From NCBI RefSeq assembly GCF_947501045.1, contig NZ_CANMUI010000009.1: a stretch of DNA of 64,000 nucleotides. One strand, given 5' to 3'. This DNA is from an uncultured Psychrobacter sp. Its GTDB lineage: Bacteria; Pseudomonadota; Gammaproteobacteria; Pseudomonadales; Moraxellaceae. Of this stretch, positions 17,319-30,985 are shown piece by piece. How positions within the stretch are numbered: the stretch's first letter is position 1; each line of letters begins with the position of its first letter. The position numbers and the translations under genes are program-made. The notes beneath the pieces were generated by a model that worked only from the letters and a program-made list of their open reading frames with translations, was not told the origin of the DNA and did no database searches.

Positions 17319-20300
17319 TTATGCTAAACCATACTTTCTTTGTCTATTAATAAATGCTGGTACAGTCCCTTCTAAAACATTAATAATGTGTTGCTTGATT
17401 GTTGGGTTTTCAATAGATCCAGAAATATAAGATATCTTCTTACCAGTATCACGTTCAAACTCTGCATATATAATCTGTTCAGCATCACAAACAACTGCTA
17501 GATTAGGATTATGAGTCACCATAATGACCTGGCGTTTTTTCTTAGCCTCTTTAATTATGGGCACTAAAATATCGTAAATAGTTTGATTATCTAAGTTTTC
17601 TTCTGGCTGATCTATCAATAAAGGATTGTTAGATTTATCTAACAGCAAAAAGAGGATTAATAGCAGCTCTCCTCTTTGTCCTGGCGATAAATAGTCTACA
17701 TCAACACCATCGTACTGAATGCGATTTTGTATTTCAAGATACTCAAATGAATAAATAAAACGGAATAAATCTTCTAATCTTGCTTTGTCCTTTACAATAT
17801 TTTTTAACCTTACATCACCTAACCCATCAAGTTCTTGCAGTACATTAATAAATTTTTCAGGAAAGCTTTCAAAGCAAATGCTACCATTCTCATCAATTAA
17901 GCACTCATCAATAGTTTTATAAATATTATCAATATTTATAACCTTATGTCTTAAATTTATTAAGTTTGCAAGTCTCAATCTAAAAAAATCTTTATCAAAT
18001 TTTACATAAGCTTCAAAGTTTAGCTTAACATTAATACCTCTTGATATAATATTTTGAATTTCCTGTACAATACCGCTAAACATCTCTTCTCTTTTATATA
18101 ACTTTAAATTTATTTTATCTAAAATACTTTTAGATTCTTCTTTTATTTTTCTATTAGTTTCTTTTAAATACTCTTCATATTTTTCCAAGTTAGATGCTTC
18201 AATTTCCAACTGTTTAATTGACGAATTAGCTTTAGAAATTAATTTTTCTAGGTCGTACATCCTATTACGCTTTTCGCCTAACTCATTATTTTTTTCATTA
18301 AGAGCTTTTGATTTGATTTTATAGGCATCATTAGCTAAATTAAATTCCTCACTAACTCTAATAGCATGCTGTCTCTTAGTATTTATATCTTCTTCAATTA
18401 ATTTAATTTTTGATTGTATTAAAGCATCATCGAAATTGAAGCTGATAATCTCGTCAATAGGTATTTCAAAATCAATCAGAAATCTATTTTTAAAATCTTC
18501 TTTTTGCGCCTCATAACTTACTTTAATTCGCTTTAGTTCATCAATAGCATTTTCGAATTTCATTAATTGATTTGACAGATCAATATAAACTCCATCAGCA
18601 ACAGTTTTATGATTAAAAGCACTCATCATCTCTATATGAGCTAGCTCTACATCTTTCATTAATGGGTCATCAAGACTACCGTAAATATCAGTATTTAAAT
18701 CTTGCATTTCATTGCTAGCTTTCTCTAGTTTTTCACGTTCAAGAGCCAAACTATTATTTATTTTAACCTCGTTTTCTGATGTAGTTTTATTTAAATAACT
18801 AACTATCTCACTACTTATCAACTCAATCCTACCTTTAATATCCAAGATATCTTTATTAATGGTTCTTTCGTCTTGGCTAATAAATGCATTATAGTCGTTG
18901 TTACCTAAAACTTTATCACTTGGTACATGACTAAAAACAATACTGTTAATTTGGCTCTGAAATGCGTTACTACTTAAGTCGCTACATAGCTCTTCAAAAT
19001 AACCTTGTGGAATATAAGTAATTCTATCTTTTACATTTGCATCGTTTTTACACAAGTGTGATTCCAAGTTTTCAGAATTACTCATAAAATCCAAATTTAC
19101 TTTATAATTACTGCCAATATTCAATGTGTCAAATTTTTTGACAAAATTGTTGTATTTAATATCTGTTTTGTCTTCGAACACGTGTGAAATAATATCTATA
19201 AATGCACTTTTACCACTACCTTTGTTTCCAATAATGGCTACTAAGTCACTATTTAATTTTTGTTCTATATTTTCGAACCACTCTCCAGCTGTTTCTGAAC
19301 TGTGATTACTAATACAGACTCTGTCTAAGTATTTTTCTGAATTACCTTCAATGGCTTTCAATTTGTCTGGTTTATCGCCTATAAAAGACCTATTTGAAGG
19401 CTCTCTAATAGCTTGTAATAAACCTTCGAAGGTAGTGTCAGCTTTTATCCAGGTTTTATTATTACCAGGAAATACTGCATACCCTCTATCTTCTCCACTA
19501 GTTTTGAACCTATGAGCATCGCTACCCCTTACTGCCAAACAAGGTTTATCTCCTAAGCAGTATTGAAACTCCTTCAAAAAATTTTTGTTATTATCTGTTT
19601 CTACATTTTGAAAAGTTAAAGCTTCTTCTTGATTTTTAACCTCAAAGATGTTAGCAAATTTCATTAGTTTGAAAACGTACTGATAGTTATCTTTTGAAAA
19701 ACTAGTCGCTCCTCCATGAGTACTCCAAGCTAAATACGGAACTGCCCTATCAGGATACATATTTACTGCTTTCTCCCAAGATTCAACAGTTACTTCAGCT
19801 TTCTCCTTACTAGCAGTTAAAGCATCTTCGTCATTTTTCTTGACATCGCCTTTAACATCTTTAGTATTACTATCAGGTAATTTACGTATATATTCAATTA
19901 AAGACTTATTCGATAATGGCTTATCTATTAAATCAAGAATTAGGTTACTCTTAAAATCACTTAAATCAGTAATACTTATATCATTAGAGAAAACTACATG
20001 AGCATTCAATCTAGGTAGTTTTGATGAAGATAGTCTAAGTTCGATTCCAGGGAAAACTACTTTATTTAATTTTGGTGAATTAGGCATGTCTAATCTATTT
20101 TTTAATGCTATCCAGCCATCAAATGTAAAGTAATCCATCAATACGAAAACATCAGCATCTGCTTTGTTCAAAGCTTCAATCATCTCATCAATAATCTCTA
20201 TGTCTACTTGAGTATTCAAATTGGGGTTATTTAGCTTACGACTACCTCTCCAATTAAACGAAGCAGGTGTGTGTACATGAAAATCCCAAACCCTCCACTC

Positions 20301-20327
20301 TGAACCTCTTTGAAATTCTTGTTCCAT
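17319..20327 (-). CDS. PHP-domain phosphoesterase fused to SMC/Rad50-like ABC ATPase with long coiled coil (Ppl/TrlF-like candidate anti-phage protein)
   Basis: N-terminal PHP motifs (WDFHVHTP ... GSDAHRF). Walker A GNKGSGKS. About 330 aa of K/E/N-rich coiled coil. C-terminal ABC signature LSPGQRGE, Walker B LLIDQPEENLD and H-loop VTHN. About 28% GC against 45-50% in flanks. Confidence 0.7.
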   Translation of the reverse strand: MEQEFQRGSEWRVWDFHVHTPASFNWRGSRKLNNPNLNTQVDIEIIDEMIEALNKADADVFVLMDYFTFDGWIALKNRLDMPNSPKLNKVVFPGIELRLSSSKLPRLNAHVVFSNDISITDLSDFKSNLILDLIDKPLSNKSLIEYIRKLPDSNTKDVKGDVKKNDEDALTASKEKAEVTVESWEKAVNMYPDRAVPYLAWSTHGGATSFSKDNYQYVFKLMKFANIFEVKNQEEALTFQNVETDNNKNFLKEFQYCLGDKPCLAVRGSDAHRFKTSGEDRGYAVFPGNNKTWIKADTTFEGLLQAIREPSNRSFIGDKPDKLKAIEGNSEKYLDRVCISNHSSETAGEWFENIEQKLNSDLVAIIGNKGSGKSAFIDIISHVFEDKTDIKYNNFVKKFDTLNIGSNYKVNLDFMSNSENLESHLCKNDANVKDRITYIPQGYFEELCSDLSSNAFQSQINSIVFSHVPSDKVLGNNDYNAFISQDERTINKDILDIKGRIELISSEIVSYLNKTTSENEVKINNSLALEREKLEKASNEMQDLNTDIYGSLDDPLMKDVELAHIEMMSAFNHKTVADGVYIDLSNQLMKFENAIDELKRIKVSYEAQKEDFKNRFLIDFEIPIDEIISFNFDDALIQSKIKLIEEDINTKRQHAIRVSEEFNLANDAYKIKSKALNEKNNELGEKRNRMYDLEKLISKANSSIKQLEIEASNLEKYEEYLKETNRKIKEESKSILDKINLKLYKREEMFSGIVQEIQNIISRGINVKLNFEAYVKFDKDFFRLRLANLINLRHKVINIDNIYKTIDECLIDENGSICFESFPEKFINVLQELDGLGDVRLKNIVKDKARLEDLFRFIYSFEYLEIQNRIQYDGVDVDYLSPGQRGELLLILFLLLDKSNNPLLIDQPEENLDNQTIYDILVPIIKEAKKKRQVIMVTHNPNLAVVCDAEQIIYAEFERDTGKKISYISGSIENPTIKQHIINVLEGTVPAFINRQRKYGLA

Positions 20328-20548: not shown

Positions 20549-20734
20549 GTCCATCTTACACCGCAGACAACGCTCTAAACAATAAGTCTCTTTATTTCGC
20601 TGATAAGGTAGATATTTTATGAAATTGGTGCGCTGGGCGCAGCCTACGCCAAATTTTGCAGTGCATATGCTATTTGAAGGCTTATTTTTTGTAGGTTGGT
20701 GTCGAGGCACGAGACCCAACAATTTATAAATCAA
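20546..20734 (-). pseudogene. diverged or degenerate DUF2256-like small ORF (possible pseudogene)
   Basis: N-terminal KNKPSNSIC and C-terminal YCLERCLRCK resemble the intact neighbour ([10 protein letters not shown] ... [10 protein letters not shown]). The first CxxC is disrupted. Confidence 0.3.
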
Positions 20735-20745
20735 AAATATATAAT

Positions 20746-20809
20746 CGGTGGGTTACGCCTTGTCTGCATTCTCTGCGAGAATTTGACAAGTCTAACACCA
20801 CCCTACTTC
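20746..20809. repeat. 64-bp imperfect palindromic repeat R1
   Basis: CGGTGGGTTACGCCTTGTCTGCATTCTCTGCGAGAATTTGACAAGTCTAACACCACCCTACTTC. Nested inverted arms (CTTGTC/GACAAG, ATTCTC/GAGAAT, GGTGGGTTA/TAACACCACC). Three copies within 0.8 kb. Confidence 0.6.
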
Positions 20810-21216: not shown

Positions 21217-21280
21217 CGGTGGGTTACGTCTTGTCTGCATTCTCTACGAGAATTTGACAAGTCTAACGCCACCCTACTTC
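21217..21280. repeat. 64-bp imperfect palindromic repeat R2
   Basis: About 94% identical to R1. Overlaps the stop codon of the DUF2256 gene. Confidence 0.6.
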
Positions 21281-21414
21281 CTTTTCGCCCGCCGACACCG
21301 CTCAGAACAATAAACCACATTATCCCAATCCTTCTCCCATTTCTTACGCCATGTAAAAAGTCGCTGGCAGACAGGGCATATTTTCTGGGGTAGATTTTGT
21401 TTTTTGTGTGCCAT
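21274..21414 (-). CDS. DUF2256-type zinc-ribbon protein (46 aa: [46 protein letters not shown])
   Basis: Matches the DUF2256 pattern (CPVC...FxWRKKW...YCSERCRR). The real start is the internal ATG of the 86-aa track ORF. Confidence 0.7.
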
Positions 21415-21441: not shown

Positions 21442-21458
21442 GGTGCGCGGGGCGCACC
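21442..21458. promoter_or_regulatory. 17-bp perfect dyad GGTGCGC-GGG-GCGCACC (7-3-7), 28 bp upstream of the DUF2256 start
   Basis: Read from sequence. Same GGTGC...GCACC 7-3-7 geometry as two dyads upstream of the 2091-aa gene. Confidence 0.4.
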
Positions 21459-21510: not shown

Positions 21511-21574
21511 CGGTGGGTTACGTCTTGTCTGCATTCTCTACGAGAATTCGACAAGCCTAACACCACCCTACCTC
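21511..21574. repeat. 64-bp imperfect palindromic repeat R3
   Basis: About 90% identical to R1/R2. Lies 19 bp downstream of the stop of the 2091-aa gene, so it may also act as its terminator hairpin. Confidence 0.6.
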
Positions 21575-21592: not shown

Positions 21593-24500
21593 CTACTCAT
21601 AATTATCAAATATTTTATTAAGCCGATTTAAGCTATTGACGATAAGCTTGCCCGATTGGTCGGTGCTGGTGTCGAGGGCGAGTTTTTCATCCATACGCAT
21701 ATTGAGCGGTTCTAGCGCTTGCTTAAGCGCGTTTGCCAAGAGCGCGGTTTGTTCCGTGATGTCGGGGATGTCGGTCTTAGAAGTTTGACTCTCAGCACTC
21801 TTAAACAGGCTATCGGCCATCTGCTGCGCCAGTTGCTCGACCGCGCTGACCAATTGCACCATGAGCTGCTTTTGGATATCTTGGTTTTGCTTGAGGTACT
21901 CCCCTTCTGCTTTATGGTCGTGCTTATAGATTTGTATCAGCTGGTTCATGCTTTTCTCAAAGCCGTTATCGATGCTGTCGCTAACAACTTTGGCGTTGTC
22001 TACAAAACCCGTGATAAAGCTGTCGGCGAGGATTTTTTGCGCCTCAAGCTGGGCATCGATTTGCGCTTGCTGTTCAGCGCCTCGCAAGTGGGCGATTTGT
22101 TCAGGGTCATTTTGGTTAAGGTATTTATCAAACTGACTACTAATAGCATTGAAGCCGCTGGCTAGGTCAACGAGCTGCGCGACGATACGTGCACCAGTGT
22201 CGCCATCTTCCCCGCCCATGGCTTTGTTACGTAAAAAGTCAGCTTTGATTTGCTCCCAGCGCTCTTTTTCTGTCTCCGTTAAGACATTACGCATCTCGCC
22301 AAGCTTAAGTAAGTTACTCTCTGCACCTTGGGTTAATAGCTGCGACTCGCCTAGATAGTGATCATCTACCAGCTGGTTCAGCTCTTGCGCATTCATGACC
22401 GCCGATAGCTTTTCGGTCATCTTATTCATATTACGGTAACTGCCTTGCAGCTTAAATATCGGCTCGACGCGATATTTATCATCTTGCGAAGCCGAGGCGA
22501 TGTAAGCTTGGTTGACGTCAAGGATGACTTCTTGCACGGTAAACATATGGCGCAAGATGGCGATAATTTCGTTAATCTCTGAGGTGCTATAAGGATAAGT
22601 CAGGTCGCTTGCTTGCGCGAGACTTTCGCTATTGGAACCGACGGCTTTTGCCATTTTTATGAGGCGATGGACGTCGCTCAAATCACGGTTGGCAAGTGGC
22701 GCGAGAACTTTGTTTGACGTCAACGAGTTTTCGATATAACTGAGCGCAAAGACTTCTTCCATACCGCTCATGATGTCGCCTAAGTTGTAGATGTCGGCGC
22801 GGTTGGCGAGCATGTCAGGGACTTTAAAGGCCTCACCGCTTTCGGTGTACGGGTTACCCGCCATGACCACGCAGAACTTCTTGCCACGCATATCATAGGT
22901 TTTGGTTTTGCCTTGCCAGACGCCGTCGATACGGCGTGTACCATCGCCAAGTGAGATAAACTTCTGCAAAAATTCGGCATGAGTATGCTGGATATCGTCC
23001 AGATATAGCATGACATTATTGCCCATCTCAAAGGCTAAGTTGATTTTATTCAGCTCTTCTCTAGCAGTGGCGTTGGGCGCTTTTTCGGGATCTAAAGAGG
23101 TGACGTCATGACCGAGGGAAGGACAATTAATCTTCATAAAGATGAGGCCAAGACGGTTTGCCACATACTCCATCAAGGTGGTTTTACCGTAACCTGGTGG
23201 CGATATCATCATCAGGATACCCATCGGATCGGTACGTTTATCTTCGCCGACCGTGCCCATTTGCTTAGCAAGGTTGTCGCCGATTAACGGCAGATAGCTC
23301 TCATTAATCAGACGGTTACGCACAAAGGATGACAGTGGACGTGGCATAAACTCATCCAATCGCAATGATTCTTTTGAGTCGTGCAATATCTCTGAGCGCA
23401 TGGCTAGATAGCGTCTGTAGGCAGGAATGACCTGTGTGTCATGATGGTGCAAACGATTTAAGAAATCATCGACAGCAAAGGTCAAAGTCTGCTGATGAAT
23501 GCGCTCATGTTCGCCTAGTAAGTTATTGACTTGTATTTCAAGCGACACTTTACCTATGCTGCGCTCAAAGCTCTGTACTTGATTGAGCGGATTATTGAGA
23601 CTGGTCAATGAGGTAGTGGCTGAGAATGACAAAGTAGACGGCGTGCCAGTAGCGCTCTTATCAAAGCTAATACCTGAGTCAATGAGACGTTGCACCAAGG
23701 CTTCACGTTGCCCATCATTTAATTGGGTGAGTAAGACCGCAATCGCTTCGGGCACATAGTGGCGGCCAATCTGCAATTGCTGTCTACGTAAGGCGGACTT
23801 TTCCTCAATTTCAGCAAGCTGTTCTTCACTGAGTGGTTTGCCTTCACTATCAGTACTATCTAATGGCTTATTGATTGTTTCGCTATCGCCATAGGTCTTA
23901 TCCAATAGCGCATGAAACCACGTTGCCAATAGCTCATAGGCTGATTTGGGCTGAAAGCCAAGTTTGCCGATTGAGGATCGTAATTGCTCAAAACTGGCAG
24001 CGTTCTGCGTACTGCCTGACGAACTATTTAGCGTTTGCGTCAGCTGCTCGCACAACTGCTGCGCTTGCTGACTGGTTTGCCATTCTATTTCTGTATTTGT
24101 GCCAGTACTTATGCCTGCATTTGGGCTACTCGCCTGCCCCATGACACTGACCAAGTATTCACTGGCAAGCTGAACGTAGCTTTGTTTAAAGATATTGGCG
24201 TTGTGAATGTCGCTGATGTCTAAATTCAGGTCTGAGCTGGAGTTGGATTCTGAGCCTAAATCTGAATCTGACTTCTTATTAGAATTGTTCTCGAGGCTAA
24301 TACTGTCGTTACTAAAGTTATCATCATTATAAGCAGAGACAAAGTTATGCATAACCTCCGTCATATCTTCTACTAGCAAGGCTTTGGCGGTATCACTACC
24401 TAAGCTACGACGCAATTGCTCGGCGGTGATGGCTCTATCCGTCCAGTTACTCACGCGCGTTAGTACGGACTCATTTAGCCAGTTATCGTAACCAAATTGA

Positions 24501-27500
24501 CGTAATCCATTTAAACCGAGTGCTTTTACTAGGCTCAACTGCCAATAGAACAGCTGCGCCAACGCACGTACTTGCGGGGTATAAATGAGCAAGCCAGCTT
24601 CGCGCAAAGTCGGTAGTATTTGCAGCAATAGCAATGTTGCATCATGGTCATGAATGCCTTTGTCATAACCGAGCTGATAACGTGGTGTGGCGTAAGCTTT
24701 GACCAGTTTGGCAAGAGGGCTATCATCGATGTCGCCATTACTATCAATAGTGCTACTAACACTGCTATTAATAGTACTAACAGTGTCGTCATAAGCTTGA
24801 TATAGGCGCGACTCGGTCAAGCCATCTTGACTGTTTTTGGCACTTTCGATAATGCTATACGCTAGGTATTCGGCGCGGTAGACGGTATCGGACTCGGAGG
24901 CGATGTTCATATCCCAATACGGACGCAAAGCGTTTAATTCGGCATTGTCCAATACTTCATAATAATCTGTGCCCGTTAAATGCAGATTAAGGACGCGTTT
25001 GCCGTCTGTCTGCCCACGACTTAGTAAGGTCAAATCCAATGGCTGAGTATTGACCGAAAAGCGGTGCTTGCCAAGCTTGATGATTTGACCACCATCTTCA
25101 AACAAATCTGACTTGTCTTTTAGGCTCTTATAACTCTCGATTTGAATGGCTTTTAAGCGCGCATCAATATCATCTGCTTTGACACTAAAGCCTAATGTTA
25201 GCAGCTCTTTGGCGATGCTACGAACTTTTTGCACTAGGCCATCTGAGGCAAAGTAAGTATTTAAAGCTTCTTCCTCTGTGAAGCCTGTTACGCCTGTGCT
25301 TTGCGTGCGTTTTTTGATGCTCTCCAGCATACGTAGTGCGCCATCACCTAAGTTTTGTGCCTTACGGTTGCGGGCATCGAGCAATTGCTGCTTATGATTT
25401 TCAAAGGTTTCGTAAATCTCTTCACGCTTGCTGATAATGTCGGCTAAAAACTGATCGCCACTATTAGTCTCTGGGTCAGCAAACTGGCTCTCTAACTCTT
25501 CTAACTGCACCAGCAATTTTGCCATTTGCTCATCTGACTTCTCAGGCGTATTGGCAATGGATAAAGCATTGGCAATGGATTGACCAAACAGTTTAAATTG
25601 CGCGCCAAATTGCGCCACGGCTTCAGCTGAGCCTAAGCTTTTACGTTTATGATTTAGCTTAGCTTTACTTTGATTGAGACTCGCATAGATGGTCGAGATG
25701 TCATCGATAATTTGCGTGCGTACCGTGGCATCGGCGACGTCTAGTGTACCTAGCAGCTCGGTCAACAAGTCTAAACCTTGAGCGGTCTCATCGATTTTTT
25801 CTAATACTGGCTTGAGCTCGGCATTGGTCTCGCTCGTATTTAAACGCTCACTAACATCTGCTAACACCCCTTCGTAGCTTGATAGCGCCTCTTCACCACT
25901 TAGAAATAGTACGGTTTTTTCGGCAAGCTCGCTCTCTGCTGCTTCTAGTTGTGTTTGTAGCGCTACTAATTTATCGCTATCTAAATAACGTAAATCTTCC
26001 AAGCTGACCAAGCGGCCTTTTTGCCGTCTTAACGCCGACAATTGATCAACATAGTCACTGGCCGACTCAAAAGTAGTGACTCTTATCTGCCGCAATATTT
26101 CATTCTGCTGGGCTTCAGCATCGGCTATAGCGGTTTGAGTTTGCTTTTGAATACTTTGTACTTTGGCAAATTCATCAATGACCAGCTCAGCAGTGGCCGT
26201 CACCTCTTTGATACTACCTGCAATCTCGGTCAGCTCAGGTTCAGATAGCCAATAATAGCTATCAAAGAGACGGCTAGTATTGTCGGCTAATTCTTCATAG
26301 AGCTTTTGTGACACGCTTTGATTGTCAATGAGGCGGGTGATGCTATAGAGATCTGAGATGCCGCGCACCAATTCTTTATTGCCAATTTTGCCATAGAAGC
26401 TCGTGCTTTCAGGTAATTCACTGACATACTCAGGAGAGGCATAAGGGGTATGCCATATCTGCATCGGGTGAATGCGTGATGGTTCACTTTGGGCGCTGAA
26501 CAGTACCAAGCGACCATTTTCTGCCAGTGCCATACCATTACAATAAATGGGGTTTGCCAGTTGTTTTTTGATAAGGTTATAAGGGAATAACCCCGTGATG
26601 CCCAACGCCACGTCATAGAATAAGAATAAAACGTCTTCGCCGTTGGGTGAGACGATTTTACGCTTAAATTGTAAGTTCTTTTCATTGCCATTATTGGCAT
26701 CGACGTTCTGAGCATCAAACAGTTTATGTTCGCCAGTTTGCAAGTAATAACCGCCCGGGAAGATAATGCCGTGATCTTCGGGTAGCTGGACACAAGATTG
26801 GCCGATGGCATCCAGTCGCAGCACTTCTTCAGTCAAGGTGTTGTAGACGAAATAGCGATGACTGTCTTCACGATACGGCAAAATCTTTAACAATATTAAA
26901 CTACCAACTTTGGCATAAGAAATCTCAGCATCTGTCAGAGATTGCGTACTATCACTAACGGGTTCGCTATAAATTCCTAGCCCTGATTGAGTATTATCTT
27001 CAATTTTAATGGTCAAACTGCCGCTAACAGTTTCTACAAATATCGTATCTAAGATATTCATATGCGGGTATTTGCCATTGATCATCTGATCACGAGTAGT
27101 CTCAGTCCAATCAAAATCATAGGCTGGCGGCAACTCGATATCGCGCTCACCTCTATTATCTACATAGGCGACTTGGGCGGATTCTGGTGTGCCTTCGCTA
27201 AAGTCTAGGGCAAAACGAAACACTCGAATATCGGTGATACGTTCACCGATCTGAAATGCTAATAGCAGCTTGCTGTCTTTAACGGTCAGTTGAATCAAGC
27301 GCGTTTGCTTGTAATATCTATACAGCTCATTAAAGTCTTGTACAAAGGCTTGTTGATCTAAAAATGTGCCCGTTAAATCGACCTCTTCAAGCTGGTAGTC
27401 TTTCTCAACATCGTTACTGTTATTATCAGGCTTCGTATTATCAGACTCTATCAAACGATACAACGACAGCACATCTTTGACATTGCTCGCGCGTTTAAGA

Positions 27501-27868
27501 CCCATAAAGACGTTGTAGCCGAATAGCAAATAGCCACCGACCTGCACCATATCCTGCGCCACACAGTTGTGTTCGGTGCGAATACGAGTACGAGCTGTCA
27601 CTTGCATTTGAGTGCTACCAAACTCTTCAAGACGCGCGTTATTCAGGGTAGCGGTCTGTTGCTCTAAACGGCTGCCCTGCTCCGTTAGACGTTTTTTGAT
27701 GAGCTCATAGGCATTGCCGGCGGCAACAGCCTGATCAGTTTGACCGGTTTGTTCAGCTTGATTGGCTTGGCTATCGTTGCTTGGGCTATCTGAATTGGTT
27801 GAGTTTTGCGTATCCGCCATCGTGAGTCGTCCACTTCTGTTTTTATATAATAAGAGAGTTTTGCGCAA
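21593..27868 (-). CDS. giant (about 2090 aa) coiled-coil protein with internal MoxR/dynein-type (AAA_5-like) AAA+ ATPase domain; function unknown
   Basis: Walker A SPPGYGKTT. Walker B VMLYLDD. Sensor-1/MoxR signature FCVVMAGNPYTE...VPDMLANRA (compare MoxR ATQNP.E...LPEA.LDRF) at about aa 1500-1700. Long E/Q/L-rich helical stretches before and after. N-terminal 500 aa unrecognised. First codon is TTG; the first ATG is 48 nt downstream (27820). Confidence 0.6.
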   Translation of the reverse strand: MRKTLLLYKNRSGRLTMADTQNSTNSDSPSNDSQANQAEQTGQTDQAVAAGNAYELIKKRLTEQGSRLEQQTATLNNARLEEFGSTQMQVTARTRIRTEHNCVAQDMVQVGGYLLFGYNVFMGLKRASNVKDVLSLYRLIESDNTKPDNNSNDVEKDYQLEEVDLTGTFLDQQAFVQDFNELYRYYKQTRLIQLTVKDSKLLLAFQIGERITDIRVFRFALDFSEGTPESAQVAYVDNRGERDIELPPAYDFDWTETTRDQMINGKYPHMNILDTIFVETVSGSLTIKIEDNTQSGLGIYSEPVSDSTQSLTDAEISYAKVGSLILLKILPYREDSHRYFVYNTLTEEVLRLDAIGQSCVQLPEDHGIIFPGGYYLQTGEHKLFDAQNVDANNGNEKNLQFKRKIVSPNGEDVLFLFYDVALGITGLFPYNLIKKQLANPIYCNGMALAENGRLVLFSAQSEPSRIHPMQIWHTPYASPEYVSELPESTSFYGKIGNKELVRGISDLYSITRLIDNQSVSQKLYEELADNTSRLFDSYYWLSEPELTEIAGSIKEVTATAELVIDEFAKVQSIQKQTQTAIADAEAQQNEILRQIRVTTFESASDYVDQLSALRRQKGRLVSLEDLRYLDSDKLVALQTQLEAAESELAEKTVLFLSGEEALSSYEGVLADVSERLNTSETNAELKPVLEKIDETAQGLDLLTELLGTLDVADATVRTQIIDDISTIYASLNQSKAKLNHKRKSLGSAEAVAQFGAQFKLFGQSIANALSIANTPEKSDEQMAKLLVQLEELESQFADPETNSGDQFLADIISKREEIYETFENHKQQLLDARNRKAQNLGDGALRMLESIKKRTQSTGVTGFTEEEALNTYFASDGLVQKVRSIAKELLTLGFSVKADDIDARLKAIQIESYKSLKDKSDLFEDGGQIIKLGKHRFSVNTQPLDLTLLSRGQTDGKRVLNLHLTGTDYYEVLDNAELNALRPYWDMNIASESDTVYRAEYLAYSIIESAKNSQDGLTESRLYQAYDDTVSTINSSVSSTIDSNGDIDDSPLAKLVKAYATPRYQLGYDKGIHDHDATLLLLQILPTLREAGLLIYTPQVRALAQLFYWQLSLVKALGLNGLRQFGYDNWLNESVLTRVSNWTDRAITAEQLRRSLGSDTAKALLVEDMTEVMHNFVSAYNDDNFSNDSISLENNSNKKSDSDLGSESNSSSDLNLDISDIHNANIFKQSYVQLASEYLVSVMGQASSPNAGISTGTNTEIEWQTSQQAQQLCEQLTQTLNSSSGSTQNAASFEQLRSSIGKLGFQPKSAYELLATWFHALLDKTYGDSETINKPLDSTDSEGKPLSEEQLAEIEEKSALRRQQLQIGRHYVPEAIAVLLTQLNDGQREALVQRLIDSGISFDKSATGTPSTLSFSATTSLTSLNNPLNQVQSFERSIGKVSLEIQVNNLLGEHERIHQQTLTFAVDDFLNRLHHHDTQVIPAYRRYLAMRSEILHDSKESLRLDEFMPRPLSSFVRNRLINESYLPLIGDNLAKQMGTVGEDKRTDPMGILMMISPPGYGKTTLMEYVANRLGLIFMKINCPSLGHDVTSLDPEKAPNATAREELNKINLAFEMGNNVMLYLDDIQHTHAEFLQKFISLGDGTRRIDGVWQGKTKTYDMRGKKFCVVMAGNPYTESGEAFKVPDMLANRADIYNLGDIMSGMEEVFALSYIENSLTSNKVLAPLANRDLSDVHRLIKMAKAVGSNSESLAQASDLTYPYSTSEINEIIAILRHMFTVQEVILDVNQAYIASASQDDKYRVEPIFKLQGSYRNMNKMTEKLSAVMNAQELNQLVDDHYLGESQLLTQGAESNLLKLGEMRNVLTETEKERWEQIKADFLRNKAMGGEDGDTGARIVAQLVDLASGFNAISSQFDKYLNQNDPEQIAHLRGAEQQAQIDAQLEAQKILADSFITGFVDNAKVVSDSIDNGFEKSMNQLIQIYKHDHKAEGEYLKQNQDIQKQLMVQLVSAVEQLAQQMADSLFKSAESQTSKTDIPDITEQTALLANALKQALEPLNMRMDEKLALDTSTDQSGKLIVNSLNRLNKIFDNYE

Positions 27869-27931
27869 TAAGAAAAGGTGAGAAGGTTAAATGTGGCTAG
27901 TCTAAAGAAACGTTTTATAAATTATAGGTAG

Positions 27932-27948
27932 GGTGCTTTTTAAGCACC
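27932..27948. promoter_or_regulatory. 17-bp perfect dyad GGTGCTT-TTT-AAGCACC (7-3-7), upstream of the 2091-aa gene
   Basis: Read from sequence. Confidence 0.4.
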
Positions 27949-28025
27949 TAAAAGCCATGAAAAAGCACTGCCGCGTTCAGCAATGAAAATCTTTTAAATA
28001 AGACTTTCTATTATCACACTATCAT

Positions 28026-28042
28026 GGTGCATGGAATGCACC
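28026..28042. promoter_or_regulatory. 17-bp perfect dyad GGTGCAT-GGA-ATGCACC (7-3-7), upstream of the 2091-aa gene
   Basis: Read from sequence. Confidence 0.4.
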
Positions 28043-28165
28043 CTACGACAATTCATAGTAAGTCATGTATATAAAACATTTTTTTAGAGTAGCCAACTCA
28101 GTGTTTTAAGTTGGCTTGGAAATCTGCCACCTAAGCAACAGATTTTTTATTGATATTTAAAACGA

Positions 28166-30124
28166 CTAATCGTTATATTGAGCAGTCTTATTAGACTCGT
28201 TAGCTTTAGTCATAACTTGACCTGCCATAACCGTATTGATGATACCGCTTAGCGTGTCAGACTTGCCAGCTAAGCCATCAATGGCTTTACCGATAGAGAG
28301 TGACTTAGCGAAGTTATCAAAGAAGTGCGCTTCACCGCCGACAATATCGATTTTGGCTTTTTGGAGCGCCACTGCCAACACTTCAGCGTTTTCTTTAGCA
28401 ATCTCTTTGCCCGCATCGATCGACGCCATCGCTTCTTGCAATGCAGTCTCAAGACTCATGCGGAACTCTTCATGCTCACGTGCTTCCTTGCTCATGCTAC
28501 CCATGGCATTGAACTTCTCGACCAGACCATCGGCCTCAGCTTGGAAGTGCGCGCGGGTAACTTCAGCTTTTGCCAGTCCAACTTCACGTTCTGCTTTGGC
28601 ATTCGATTCACCGCGAGCGGCGATAATCTCCGCATCTGCCATGCCTTTTTCACGCTCTGATTGCGCTTCAGCTTGTCCAGTCGCTTTAATAATATTGGCT
28701 TTAGCAATGCCTTCTTTTTCCAAAGAGCTTGCTTTGGCTTCTTGAATCGCTGCTTCAGCAAACCCATGAGCAGACTCTTCAGCTTTGATACCCTCGGCAA
28801 GCTTGATTTTAGCTTCTGACTCTTTGGCAGACGCTTCAAGATTGGCAGTGGCAAGCGTGGTGATCTCAACCGCTTTATGCTTGGCAGACAGCTCTTCTGC
28901 TTCCGCCTTTTTCACCTGACGCACTTTGATTTCTTCAGCATCCGCTTCGGCAGCCAATACGCGTGTTTGCTTGGAGCGATCCGCTTCACTGACTTCGCGG
29001 ACTTCTTTGATACGCTCTTCTTCTTGCGCAACAGTTTTATCTACCGCAATACGCTCACGAATCACGTTAGCGATTTCTTTTTTCTCAACTTCAATCGCAC
29101 GTTCCGCTTCGATACGCTGTAAGTCGACTTCACGCTCACGAGAGACGATTTCTAAATCACGAGCACGAATGACTTTCTCTTCTTCAATGACGACAGCACG
29201 CAGACGGTTCTGTCCAGCCACTTCAATTTCACGTTGCTGATTCTCACGCTGAATCGCCAAATCTTGCTCAACCATAATGACAGCTGTTTCCGATTTTTTA
29301 CGCTCTTCTTCTTCAATCTTGCGGGTTTCAGCAGTCTCACGTGCAATTACAGAAGAGATTTCACGTTGCTGTTTGGCTTCGGCATCGGCTTGTTGACGCT
29401 CAAGCTCCAGCATAGCTTCCCTAGTTTCAACGTTTTTCTTCTTAACCGCTAGCTCTTCATCACGCTCAAGCTCGTTAGTGATGACATTTTGAAAGGCCGT
29501 TAATTGAGTAATCTTTTTGATACCTTCAGCATCCAAGATATTACTAGAATCTAATGACGCTTTTGGCGTTTGCTCTAAGTAATCAATTGCGACGTCTTCT
29601 AGGACATAACCATTGAGATCGTTGCCAATTTCTTGGACGATACTGTCACGAAATTCGCTGCGGTTCTCAAATAGCTTAACGAAATCAATTTGCTTACCGA
29701 CTGTTTTTAGCGCTTCTGAGAACTTGGCATTAAACAGCTCATTGACAGCGACTTTATCTGAGGCTCTTTCAACCCCAACCGATTTGGCGACTTTGAGGAC
29801 ATCCTCTTCGGTCTCGTTAACTCGCAGGTAAAACGCAACGGTGATATCAGCGCGCATGTTGTCGGCGCAAATCAGCCCTTCTTTACCGCGTCTATCCACT
29901 TCTAAAGTGATAAGCGAGATTCTCATCAATTCTTTTTTGTTGATAATGGGCCAAACGAAACCACCATCAAAGCGTACAGCGATTTTACTAACACCATTAA
30001 TAATCAGTGCTTTGCCTTGCTCAACCTTAAAATAAAAGGCTTTTAGCATCAAAAGTGCTGCCATGATGAAAACAAACGCCAGCACTACAACCACGCCGAC
30101 GATAATGAGTATGTCCATATTCAT
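28166..30124 (-). CDS. yqiK: flotillin-family SPFH (band-7) protein, YqiK-like
   Basis: N-terminal TM. SPFH core (KALIINGVSK...FVWPIINKKELMRISLITLEV...ADITVAFYLRV). About 400 aa of E/A/K-rich coiled coil, typical of bacterial flotillins. Confidence 0.8.
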   Translation of the reverse strand: MNMDILIIVGVVVVLAFVFIMAALLMLKAFYFKVEQGKALIINGVSKIAVRFDGGFVWPIINKKELMRISLITLEVDRRGKEGLICADNMRADITVAFYLRVNETEEDVLKVAKSVGVERASDKVAVNELFNAKFSEALKTVGKQIDFVKLFENRSEFRDSIVQEIGNDLNGYVLEDVAIDYLEQTPKASLDSSNILDAEGIKKITQLTAFQNVITNELERDEELAVKKKNVETREAMLELERQQADAEAKQQREISSVIARETAETRKIEEEERKKSETAVIMVEQDLAIQRENQQREIEVAGQNRLRAVVIEEEKVIRARDLEIVSREREVDLQRIEAERAIEVEKKEIANVIRERIAVDKTVAQEEERIKEVREVSEADRSKQTRVLAAEADAEEIKVRQVKKAEAEELSAKHKAVEITTLATANLEASAKESEAKIKLAEGIKAEESAHGFAEAAIQEAKASSLEKEGIAKANIIKATGQAEAQSEREKGMADAEIIAARGESNAKAEREVGLAKAEVTRAHFQAEADGLVEKFNAMGSMSKEAREHEEFRMSLETALQEAMASIDAGKEIAKENAEVLAVALQKAKIDIVGGEAHFFDNFAKSLSIGKAIDGLAGKSDTLSGIINTVMAGQVMTKANESNKTAQYND

Positions 30125-30328
30125 TCCTCTAATTAAAACATTCCAACCAAATTTAAAACAGTTGCTACAATGCCTGCCAATAGATTACTTATCGTTTATA
30201 CATTGCCCGATCGTTATTACATTTTCATTTTTAAGTTCAATTTTTACTCAAAAATCGCTTTTGCAAGCTACCCAGTTAAAAATACTTTTGTGTGAAGGTT
30301 CTTCAATTAACCCATTCAATTTTTAGCG

Positions 30329-30985
30329 TTATTTATCTTTAACAGGAGCAACTAGGTAAACATTGGCTTCATTTAGATATTCTACCAATACCACTTTGTC
30401 GCCTTGCTTTAATGAATTCTCATTCATGTCTGGACGAATTTTGAGTATTAATCCTGCGCCGCCGTCATTTAGCTCAGCTTCACCATGTTTATCTGTCACA
30501 CTAAGCGTGCGCACTATGGCTGTCTTACCCACATTACTAATGGCATTACGCTTAGGAATTTTGGCGATGTTTTTACGGATGGGTGAAATAATAACCCCCG
30601 TCAACCACATCGATACCACCAATACAAAAATGAGCGCCCCTGTGCCAAACACATAATACAAAACGCCTGAATCAAAATAGTGATGCAAAAAGCTGGTGTA
30701 GAGATAGCTTAATACCCAACCGATTAAACTAATCAAGGTTAGTATGATGATTAAAGGCACGCCATAAAGGCCAAATTTGAGCATAAGACCTGTAAAAAAT
30801 CCGGTCGATGATAGGTTGGAGACATCAGCATCACCGCCTGATTCACCAAACTCTACGGTGTCCATATCTGTCATGCCGAGTAAAGATACTACCCAATACA
30901 AGGTGACAAACATCACCAGCCCTGTAAACACAAAGGTAGGGTATAAACTTATTTTGGTAATAAAAATCAAAAACGATTCTTGCAT
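30329..30985 (-). CDS. yqiJ: NfeD-like membrane protein (YqiJ/YuaF-like) with C-terminal OB-fold
   Basis: Four or five predicted TM helices followed by an NfeD-type beta-barrel tail (GKTAIVRT...GDKVVLVEY...VYLVAPV). The canonical partner gene sits immediately upstream of the flotillin gene. Confidence 0.6.
   Translation of the reverse strand: MQESFLIFITKISLYPTFVFTGLVMFVTLYWVVSLLGMTDMDTVEFGESGGDADVSNLSSTGFFTGLMLKFGLYGVPLIIILTLISLIGWVLSYLYTSFLHHYFDSGVLYYVFGTGALIFVLVVSMWLTGVIISPIRKNIAKIPKRNAISNVGKTAIVRTLSVTDKHGEAELNDGGAGLILKIRPDMNENSLKQGDKVVLVEYLNEANVYLVAPVKDK

What the first reader, a model, noticed from the sequence alone, without database searches (positions are those of the whole stretch)
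21593..30985. Candidate three-gene module: NfeD-like YqiJ, flotillin YqiK, and a giant 2091-aa MoxR-type AAA+ coiled-coil protein
yqiJ (an NfeD OB-fold membrane protein) and yqiK (flotillin) are a well-known conserved pair, normally standing alone. Here a 6.3-kb co-directional ORF follows 297 bp downstream. Its only recognisable domain is an AAA+ module of the MoxR/midasin/dynein (AAA_5) type around aa 1500-1700: Walker A SPPGYGKTT, Walker B LYLDD, and sensor-1 block VVMAGNPYTE...PDMLANRA. This is embedded between more than 1000 aa of predicted helical/coiled-coil sequence and an unassignable 500-aa N-terminal region. SPFH proteins classically scaffold AAA+ machines (HflK/C-FtsH, QmcA-FtsH) and NfeD partners. 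A flotillin plus NfeD plus giant MoxR-like ATPase combination therefore looks like a coherent but, to my knowledge, uncharacterised membrane-microdomain machine. Its location next to a defence-type islet, and its sharing of a putative operator motif with the neighbouring micro-gene, raise the possibility of a stress or defence role.
Basis: partly seen in the sequence, partly recalled or inferred. Interest (0 to 1): 0.75.

Follow-up and report, generated by a model that had tools for sequence, protein, structure and literature searches.

The report
Known flotillin–NfeD–giant AAA+ ATPase operon
This Psychrobacter locus is a real, strictly conserved three-gene unit (small membrane protein, flotillin-like scaffold, giant soluble ATPase), but the same operon is already in the literature as the core of the Pseudomonas aeruginosa bac/PspA operon, and what the giant ATPase does is still unknown.

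Summary
Three co-directional minus-strand ORFs sit at the stated coordinates, with the quoted AAA+ motifs. The linkage idea also holds. In 69 of 69 related loci with enough upstream DNA, from at least five phyla, the order YqiJ-like, flotillin-like, giant ATPase is kept. Hymenobacter and Deinococcus plasmid records add two more phyla.

- The N-terminal 500 aa is assignable. It is Pfam DUF3686 (E 2e-190), and a moderate-confidence model looks like a beta-propeller.
- The module is not undescribed. Ravi et al. (mSystems 2024) describe this operon, including the short form without PspA. The window's proteins are 35%, 62% and 47% identical to P. aeruginosa BacC, BacD and BacE (PA3730, PA3729, PA3728). 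The bacABCDEF operon was shown by RT-PCR to be co-transcribed.
- The defence reading has no support. PADLOC gives no hits and phages carry no homologue. The trio is syntenic in six Psychrobacter genomes, while the neighbouring islet is a variable hotspot. The "operator" is a REP-like hairpin that is not conserved.

My best reading is a cytoplasmic-face membrane-stress machine. In it a MoxR/AAA_5-like ATPase remodels flotillin assemblies, and PspA assemblies where present. This is inferred, not shown. The locus is an ordinary member of a known but mechanistically unsolved system.

The parts
30329..30985 (-). YqiJ/YuaF-like (short NfeD-type) membrane protein, 218 aa. It has three hydrophobic segments plus a C-terminal OB-like domain. 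Ortholog of P. aeruginosa BacC (PA3730).
   Evidence: ORF. Hydropathy segments at aa 14-39, 63-100 and 105-137. hhalign against E. coli YqiJ gives probability 95%, E 4e-8. 35% identity, E 2e-32, to the P. aeruginosa 213-aa protein. No Pfam hit above threshold (YqiJ_OB E 0.063). A homolog lies upstream in 69 of 69 loci.
28166..30124 (-). Flotillin-like SPFH protein, 652 aa. It has an N-terminal TM anchor, a Band_7 domain and a long E/A-rich helical region. Ortholog of P. aeruginosa BacD (PA3729 = PaFlo3).
   Evidence: BLASTP to E. coli YqiK: 28% identity over 472 aa, E 3e-39. Band_7 E 3.9e-11 on aa 1-200. One TM segment at aa 1-35. 62% identity over 641 aa to the P. aeruginosa 688-aa protein. 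The Flot domain PF15975 was not detected.
27821..28165 (-). Intergenic gap between the flotillin gene and the giant gene. It holds two inverted GTAG-prefixed hairpins (27932-27948 and 28026-28042) and a terminator-like hairpin (27985-27966). Only the last ~60 bp before the ATG are conserved within the genus.
21593..27820 (-). Giant soluble protein, 2075 aa from ATG 27820 (2091 aa from TTG 27868). Databases name it 'DNA repair ATPase'. Ortholog of P. aeruginosa BacE (PA3728).
   Evidence: 47% identity over ~1900 aa to P0281. No hydrophobic segment. The family has 858 representative clusters at E<=1e-3.
26252..27667 (-). DUF3686 domain (aa 68-539 of the TTG-start ORF), predicted beta-propeller.
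   Evidence: Pfam PF12458, E 2.3e-190. The AlphaFold2 model has pLDDT 68 and is almost all beta. The Foldseek PDB top hits are propellers (Sec12, clathrin terminal domain, WD40, TolB) at E 1e-6 to 1e-4, but TM-scores are only ~0.25.
25637..25891 (-). DUF7902 helical domain (aa 660-744).
   Evidence: Pfam PF25472, E 7e-27.
22844..23215 (-). AAA+ alpha/beta domain (aa 1552-1675) carrying Walker A SPPGYGKTT, Walker B LYLDD and sensor-1 GNP. A conserved lid and C-terminal region follows, up to about aa 1890.

Best explanation
The three genes encode one membrane-associated machine on the cytoplasmic face of the inner membrane. It is the invariant core of the PspA-flotillin-AAA+ ('bac') operon family.

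Proposed working:
- The flotillin-like protein is anchored by one N-terminal helix, with its SPFH domain and long helical region in the cytoplasm, and oligomerises into an SPFH scaffold.
- The 3-TM YqiJ-like protein acts as its NfeD-type partner through its C-terminal OB-like domain.
- The giant soluble protein oligomerises through its single MoxR/AAA_5-like AAA+ module. It uses its N-terminal beta-propeller and long helical arms to engage the scaffold, and uses ATP to assemble, disassemble or remodel it during membrane stress. In genomes that carry a PspA polymer in the operon, that polymer would also be a target.

Shown here: the genes, their domains, their strict linkage, and orthology to bacC, bacD and bacE. 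Shown in the literature: bacD-bacE co-transcription and co-regulation in P. aeruginosa. Inferred: physical contact, the substrate, and the direction of the ATPase's action.
For: - Linkage: 69 of 69 loci keep the order NfeD-like, flotillin-like, giant on one strand, with gaps down to overlap (-4 bp). The loci come from Gamma-, Beta- and Zetaproteobacteria, Myxococcota, Actinomycetota and a Clostridia MAG. Independently annotated Hymenobacter and Deinococcus records show the same order.
- PspA and its CesT-like partner DUF2170 lie just upstream in 33 and 31 of 80 loci. A PLD-family gene lies downstream in 16 and a rhomboid in 10. All of these are membrane-related.
- Topology is compatible. The giant has no hydrophobic segment. 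In the flotillin, lysines follow the single TM helix, which places its bulk inside the cell.
- P. aeruginosa orthology. RT-PCR shows bacD-PA14_16190 co-transcription, and all five downstream proteins rise 6- to 13-fold in a bacA mutant (PMC10948618).
- Ravi et al. reached the same contextual inference (PMC11237479).
- A 2025 review notes that bacteria appear to lack a Vps4-like regulator of PspA (PMC7619361).
Against: - No interaction, ATPase activity or phenotype has been reported for the giant protein.
- PaFlo3 (BacD) deletion in P. aeruginosa PA14 gave no pronounced phenotype under laboratory conditions (PMC13086221).
- No PspA or DUF2170 lies in this 64-kb window, so any PspA link here would have to act in trans.
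- In Psychrobacter the flotillin-giant gap is 266-525 bp, holds REP-like insertions and a terminator-like hairpin, and is not conserved. Co-transcription in this genus is therefore unproven.
- Both structure models are of moderate or low confidence (pLDDT 68 and 59.5).
- Canonical MoxR ATPases work with a VWA partner, and none is present here.
Confidence: 0.55

Rival explanations
1. The giant ATPase is a MoxR-type chaperone or maturase for some other membrane complex. In this reading the flotillin/NfeD scaffold is only the platform that concentrates client and chaperone, and is not itself the substrate.
For: The domain is AAA_5/MoxR-like. Known MoxR proteins (NorQ, CbbQ, RavA) mature or remodel specific enzyme complexes (established knowledge). 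SPFH scaffolds are thought to organise client proteins (PMC13086221). Ravi et al. propose a chaperone-like role in assembling membrane-linked complexes.
Against: No conserved client gene and no VWA partner appears in the neighbourhood. The only invariant neighbours are the flotillin-like and NfeD-like genes.
Confidence: 0.2
2. The trio is an anti-phage or stress-defence system, as its position next to a defence-type islet would suggest.
For: The neighbouring gene 17319-20327 matches PADLOC Ppl (E 7.8e-26) and sits in low-GC DNA. PLD-family genes, which accompany the operon in 16 loci, also occur in some defence systems (general knowledge). PspA takes its name from a phage-induced stress response.
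Against: None of the three proteins hits PADLOC. No homologue was found in 50,697 phage records, and only 13 of 72,556 plasmid records carry one, mostly megaplasmids, chromids or chromosome-sized records. The trio lies in the same place (PD40 ... metH) in six Psychrobacter genomes, whereas the Ppl-like gene is unique to this window. All 120 top hits are Psychrobacter proteins at 81-98% identity, consistent with vertical inheritance as a core gene.
Confidence: 0.07
3. The giant protein is a DNA-repair ATPase, as the database name says, and its position next to the membrane genes is incidental.
For: Only the name: the Pfam DUF3686 description reads 'ATPase involved in DNA repair', and NCBI calls the protein 'DNA repair ATPase'.
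Against: No DNA-binding, nuclease or helicase domain was detected. The weak RuvB_N and RuvB hits cover only the P-loop. Linkage to two membrane proteins in 69 of 69 loci is not incidental. No paper in the searched library uses the term DUF3686.
Confidence: 0.03

Closest known systems
P. aeruginosa bacABCDEF operon (PA3732-PA3727), specifically bacC-bacD-bacE
   Same: The three proteins are orthologous in the same order and orientation: 35%, 62% and 47% identity, and the context was confirmed. In P. aeruginosa the genes are co-transcribed and co-regulated (PMC10948618).
   Different: The Psychrobacter locus lacks bacA (DUF2170/CesT-like), bacB (PspA) and bacF (PLD). The giant protein is about 330 aa longer because of S/N/D-rich insertions. 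The flotillin-giant gap is 345 bp against 150 bp.
The 'abbreviated operon' of Ravi et al. [quoted passage not shown]
   Same: Identical gene content and domain architecture. The paper states that such short forms without PspA are widely distributed.
   Different: None of substance. This analysis adds that the trio, not the PspA dyad, is the invariant part (69 of 69 loci against about 33 of 80).
E. coli yqiJ-yqiK
   Same: A 3-TM/OB protein followed by an N-terminally anchored flotillin-family protein. Homology holds at E 3e-39 for YqiK and at profile level for YqiJ.
   Different: E. coli has no giant ATPase downstream; sibD/ibsD follow instead. The window proteins are paralogous subfamilies: no Flot PF15975 hit and no YqiJ_N or YqiJ_OB hit above threshold.
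MoxR-family AAA+ ATPases (NorQ, CbbQ, RavA) and dynein/midasin AAA_5 modules
HflK/C-FtsH and Vps4-ESCRT-III
   Same: Both are functional analogies: an SPFH scaffold paired with an AAA+ machine, and an AAA+ ATPase genetically tied to an ESCRT-III-family polymer (PspA).
   Different: The giant has no protease domain and no MIT domain, and it is not in the classical AAA clade. HflK/C face the periplasm, whereas this SPFH protein is predicted to be cytoplasmic.

Membership tests
SPFH / Band 7 (flotillin-like) proteins | Band_7 (PF01145) domain above the Pfam gathering score | tested here: met
   43.7 bits against a cutoff of 23.6, E 3.9e-11, when aa 1-200 are scanned alone. The full-length scan missed it.
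SPFH / Band 7 (flotillin-like) proteins | N-terminal membrane anchor | tested here: met
   A single hydrophobic segment at aa 1-35, mean hydropathy 3.3.
Flotillin subfamily (YqiK/FloT type) | C-terminal Flot domain (PF15975) | tested here: not met
   The C-terminal 244 aa gave no hit even at E<=10, while the E. coli YqiK control hits at 6.4e-41. Overall homology to YqiK is nevertheless clear.
YqiJ / short NfeD family | YqiJ_N or YqiJ_OB Pfam domains above threshold | tested here: not met
   YqiJ_OB gives E 0.063 and 13.8 bits against a cutoff of 25.4. The E. coli control passes both.
YqiJ / short NfeD family | Profile-level homology, a multi-TM plus C-terminal OB architecture, and a position directly upstream of an SPFH gene | tested here: met
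   hhalign probability 95%, E 4e-8 over 138 columns. Hydropathy. Position. NCBI annotates the Hymenobacter ortholog as a DUF1449 family protein.
AAA+ ATPases | Walker A, Walker B and sensor-1 motifs in an AAA fold | tested here: met
MoxR / AAA_5 (helix-2-insert, pre-sensor-1 hairpin) clade | AAA_5 profile match across the whole alpha/beta domain, plus a pre-sensor-1 beta-hairpin | tested here: inconclusive
MoxR / AAA_5 (helix-2-insert, pre-sensor-1 hairpin) clade | A partner protein with a VWA domain encoded nearby | tested here: not met
   No VWA family appears among the conserved neighbours or in the Pfam lists for two annotated contexts.
PspA-flotillin-AAA+ ('bac') operon | The YqiJ-like, band-7/flotillin and DUF3686-AAA+ genes in this order | tested here: met
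   Orthology to BacC, BacD and BacE.
PspA-flotillin-AAA+ ('bac') operon | A CesT/Tir-like (DUF2170) and PspA dyad upstream | tested here: not met
   tblastn finds neither gene anywhere in the 64-kb window. The upstream genes are a PD40 propeller and a META-domain protein. This matches the published 'abbreviated' form.
Known anti-phage defence systems | A match to a PADLOC model, or island-like variable distribution | tested here: not met
   No PADLOC hit for any of the three proteins. The position is fixed in six Psychrobacter genomes. No homologue in phage records.

The most novel reading that the evidence does not exclude
The DUF3686-AAA+ giant (BacE family) may be the missing bacterial ATP-driven regulator of membrane-remodelling polymers. 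It would be a functional counterpart of Vps4 that disassembles or recycles flotillin cages and PspA (ESCRT-III-family) assemblies. Its propeller and long helical arms would act as the substrate-recognition apparatus. The NfeD-flotillin-ATPase triad, rather than PspA, would then be the ancestral core of the system.
Probability: 0.2. Interest if true: 0.75.

Novelty: already known. Interest (0 to 1): 0.3.

Why it matters
The family matters more than this particular locus. It is a large, cross-phylum operon built around a ~2000-aa ATPase that databases name 'DNA repair ATPase' without any supporting evidence. It is tied to flotillin and, in many genomes, to PspA. A 2025 review (PMC7619361) notes that no Vps4-like ATPase regulating PspA polymers has been found in bacteria.

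This analysis adds three things to the published description:
- The NfeD-like/flotillin-like/ATPase triad is the invariant unit (69 of 69 loci), and the PspA/CesT dyad is optional (about 40% of loci).
- The ATPase is closest to the MoxR/dynein type.
- Standard Pfam scans miss the SPFH domain in these proteins unless the repeat-rich tail is removed.

None of this makes the Psychrobacter instance itself unusual.

Tried and rejected
- A literature search for 'DUF3686' found no papers.
- Full-length Pfam and NCBIfam scans of the two small proteins gave nothing usable. The SPFH domain appeared only after the protein was trimmed.
- Sequence searches of the PDB with the flotillin-like and NfeD-like proteins found nothing.
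- PDB sequence and profile searches with the AAA region matched only the P-loop segment of p97, NVL and RuvB, so they could not assign a clade.
- The promoter and terminator scan gave no more sites than shuffled sequence, so it settles nothing about co-transcription.
- I considered the GGTGC-N7-GCACC motif as a possible operator. It is statistically real in the window (3 sites against 0.13 expected). I rejected the operator reading for three reasons. Each copy carries a 5' GTAG or GTAA. The two copies in the gap are inverted. The gap is not conserved in the genus, and four of five other Psychrobacter loci lack the motif altogether. One genome (L005) does carry it at the two corresponding places, so a local regulatory use is not fully excluded.
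- I rejected the defence and DNA-repair readings; see the rival explanations.
- I did not test the claim of more than 1000 aa of coiled coil. Residues ~900-1100 hold conserved, non-repetitive blocks, so the middle is not all coiled coil.
Full report
**Observation.** The window is from a Psychrobacter. All 120 best homologues of the giant protein are Psychrobacter proteins at 81-98% identity. The quoted Walker A, Walker B and sensor-1 strings are in the translation. The 297-bp gap is correct for the TTG. However, the ATG at 27820 (MADTQ...) is the start that aligns with five other Psychrobacter loci. That gives 2075 aa and a 345-bp gap.

**The two small proteins.**
- The full-length 652-aa protein gave no Pfam hit and no PDB sequence hit. 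Even so, it aligns with E. coli YqiK at 28% identity over 472 residues, E 3e-39.
- Its first 200 residues, scanned alone, hit Band_7 at E 3.9e-11, above the gathering score. The full-length miss probably comes from the E/A-rich repeat region.
- The C-terminal Flot domain of true YqiK was not detected.
- The protein has one N-terminal hydrophobic segment. Lysines follow it, which by the positive-inside rule places the bulk in the cytoplasm. This is an inference.
- The 218-aa protein has three hydrophobic stretches and a C-terminal domain. Pairwise similarity to E. coli YqiJ is marginal (E 0.047), and YqiJ_OB is below threshold.
- A 22-sequence profile of its orthologs matches YqiJ with hhalign probability 95%, E 4e-8. 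So 'YqiJ-like' and 'YqiK-like' are right as families. Neither gene is an ortholog of the E. coli pair.

**The giant protein.**
- Pfam finds DUF3686 at aa 68-539 (E 2.3e-190), DUF7902 at 660-744 (E 7e-27), and AAA/AAA_5 at 1552-1675. The N-terminal region is therefore not unassignable.
- An AlphaFold2 model of aa 46-561 is of moderate confidence (pLDDT 68) and almost all beta. Its Foldseek PDB matches are beta-propellers (Sec12, clathrin terminal domain, WD40, TolB) at E 1e-6 to 1e-4, with low TM-scores of ~0.25. This agrees with the published description of the protein as having beta-propeller repeats.
- The AAA+ region is the most conserved part of the family.
- Sequence searches of the PDB match only the P-loop segment of classical AAA proteins. 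The Pfam AAA_5 alignment, in contrast, spans the whole alpha/beta domain.
- The low-confidence model (pLDDT 59.5) places a beta-hairpin just before sensor 1.
- The protein has no hydrophobic segment. The middle region contains conserved non-repetitive blocks, so it is not simply coiled coil.

**Linkage.**
- A full-library search found 858 representative clusters for the N-terminal region, typically 1600-1900 aa long.
- An alignment of 37 diverse members recovered 80 loci from species genomes. They span Gamma-, Beta- and Zetaproteobacteria, Myxococcota, Actinomycetota and a Clostridia MAG.
- I translated all ORFs in those loci and searched them with the window's two small proteins. Of 76 full-length giants, 69 have at least 3.2 kb of upstream DNA. 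All 69 have both the flotillin-like and the NfeD-like gene upstream on the same strand.
- Flotillin-to-giant gaps run from -4 bp upward, with a median near 100 bp.
- The two large gaps (L030, L031) are insertions of PDDEXK_2 transposase-like or NYN/HepT genes.
- Independently annotated Hymenobacter and Deinococcus records show the same order.

**Accessory genes.**
- PspA and a DUF2170 (YjfI, CesT-like) gene sit directly upstream in 33 and 31 of the 80 loci.
- A PLD-family gene follows the giant in 16 loci and a rhomboid in 10.
- A zinc-ribbon protein sits between or after the core genes in some Betaproteobacteria.
- None of these is anywhere in the 64-kb window.

**Prior knowledge.**
- Ravi et al. 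(mSystems 2024, PMC11237479; preprint 2020) describe exactly this operon. [quoted passage not shown] They state that abbreviated operons with only the last three are more widely distributed.
- In P. aeruginosa the cluster is bacABCDEF. I confirmed the context DUF2170, PspA, 213 aa, 688 aa, 1746-aa DUF3686-AAA, PLD, YaeQ, RecJ, then a 498-aa Peptidase_M4 protein. Equating these genes with PA3732-PA3724 rests on the known PAO1 order, in which recJ and lasB are PA3725 and PA3724. That part comes from my own knowledge.
- The window's proteins are 35%, 62% and 47% identical to the 213-, 688- and 1746-aa proteins.
- RT-PCR showed transcripts spanning every junction, including bacD-PA14_16190. All five downstream proteins rise 6- to 13-fold in a bacA mutant (PMC10948618).
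- BacD is the PaFlo3 of a 2026 survey, which reported no pronounced phenotypic changes for SPFH deletions (PMC13086221).
- I found no paper on the biochemistry of the giant protein.

**Defence and operator claims.**
- The trio gives no PADLOC hit. The neighbour at 17319-20327 does (Ppl, E 7.8e-26) and lies in low-GC DNA.
- In six Psychrobacter genomes the order is PD40 propeller, NfeD-like, flotillin-like, giant, DUF2256 micro-gene(s), a variable stretch of 2.6-7.3 kb, then metH. The Ppl-like gene occurs only in this window. In strain H8-1 the same slot holds an IS1 transposase fragment, a reverse transcriptase and a PIN-domain gene. The adjacency is therefore a hotspot effect.
- The family is absent from 50,697 phage records and present in only 13 of 72,556 plasmid records.
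- The shared motif is real in the window: GGTGC-N7-GCACC occurs at 21442, 27932 and 28026, three sites against 0.13 expected.
- Each copy is preceded by GTAG or GTAA, and the two in the gap are inverted relative to each other. The gap is poorly conserved within the genus, and four of five other loci have no copy.
- A GTAG prefix before a palindrome is the signature of REP elements, from established knowledge. Three copies of a 60-nt GTAG-prefixed palindromic repeat also lie nearby. I therefore read the motif as a REP-type element. One genome (L005) has copies at both corresponding places, so a local regulatory role is not excluded.

**Mechanism.** My best-supported reading (confidence 0.55) is a cytoplasmic-face membrane-stress machine. 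In it the AAA+ giant remodels flotillin, and PspA where present. The genes, domains, linkage and orthology are shown. Contact, substrate and direction of action are inferred. The rivals are a MoxR-type chaperone for another client (0.2), a defence system (0.07) and DNA repair as named (0.03).

**Verdict.** The locus is an ordinary ortholog of a system that is already described but whose mechanism is unsolved.

Noticed in passing
window 20747-20806, 21218-21277, 21512-21571 (minus strand): There are three copies (1-2 mismatches) of a 60-nt palindromic repeat, GTAGGGTGGTGTTAGACTTGTCAAATTCTCGTAGAGAATGCAGACAAGACGTAACCCACC, downstream of the giant gene. A diverged copy sits in the flotillin-giant gap of Psychrobacter sp. 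H8-1 (L002). They look like REP/MITE-type elements.
   Followed up: partly
window 21442-21458, 27932-27948, 28026-28042 (and a diverged copy near 20640): Short GTAG/GTAA-prefixed hairpins of the form GGTGC-N7-GCACC occur here: 3 sites against 0.13 expected. The two in the flotillin-giant gap are inverted, like a REPIN doublet. L005 carries the motif at the two corresponding places (7785 and 15001). Four other Psychrobacter loci have none.
   Followed up: yes
window 21274-21414 (minus strand): The 'micro-gene' is a 46-aa DUF2256 four-cysteine zinc-ribbon protein (Pfam E 7e-23). Other Psychrobacter genomes have 2-3 tandem paralogs directly after the giant gene, and this window has one. Outside the genus, the 80 loci hold only one copy, on the opposite strand in a Pseudoalteromonas locus.
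   Followed up: partly
window 17319-20327 (minus strand), GC 0.28-0.33: A 1002-aa ABC/SMC-type ATPase here matches PADLOC Ppl (E 7.8e-26), with weaker hits to AriA, Lamassu LmuB and Gabija GajA. It lies in a low-GC insert between the DUF2256 gene and metH. It is unique to this genome among six Psychrobacter. The slot is a variable hotspot of 2.6-7.3 kb.
   Followed up: partly
window 28166-30124: Method note: the full-length flotillin-like protein gives no Pfam hit at E<=0.1, and the precomputed Pfam tables for its orthologs show '-'. The first 200 aa alone hit Band_7 at E 3.9e-11. This subfamily is therefore easily missed by routine annotation.
   Followed up: yes
window ~23600-24400 (giant protein aa ~1140-1400): Psychrobacter giants are about 300 aa longer than the ~1750-aa orthologs elsewhere. 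The extra length comes from S/N/D-rich low-complexity insertions between the conserved middle blocks and the AAA+ module.
   Followed up: no
window 27966-27985 (minus strand): A terminator-like hairpin (CATTGCTGAACGCGGCAGTG followed by CTTTTTC) lies inside the flotillin-giant gap. A different hairpin with a T-run sits after the flotillin gene in L003, L004 and L018. The scan as a whole found no more sites than shuffled sequence.
   Followed up: no
L030 4604-7994; L031 5963-7994: In two loci, secondary insertions split the operon between the flotillin-like and giant genes. L031 (a Zetaproteobacteria MAG) has two PDDEXK_2 transposase-like genes. L030 (Lampropedia) has NYN-domain and HepT-like toxin genes.
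   Followed up: partly
L059 7372-7938, L062 7402-7935, L082 7432-7995, L008 14898-15455: A ~180-aa protein with a Zn_ribbon_TFIIB domain recurs inside or just after the operon in several Beta- and Gammaproteobacteria. It may be a further accessory component.
   Followed up: no
whole family: The widespread database name 'DNA repair ATPase' or 'DNA repair protein' seems to come only from the Pfam DUF3686 description. I found no domain, context or publication that supports a role in DNA repair.
   Followed up: partly
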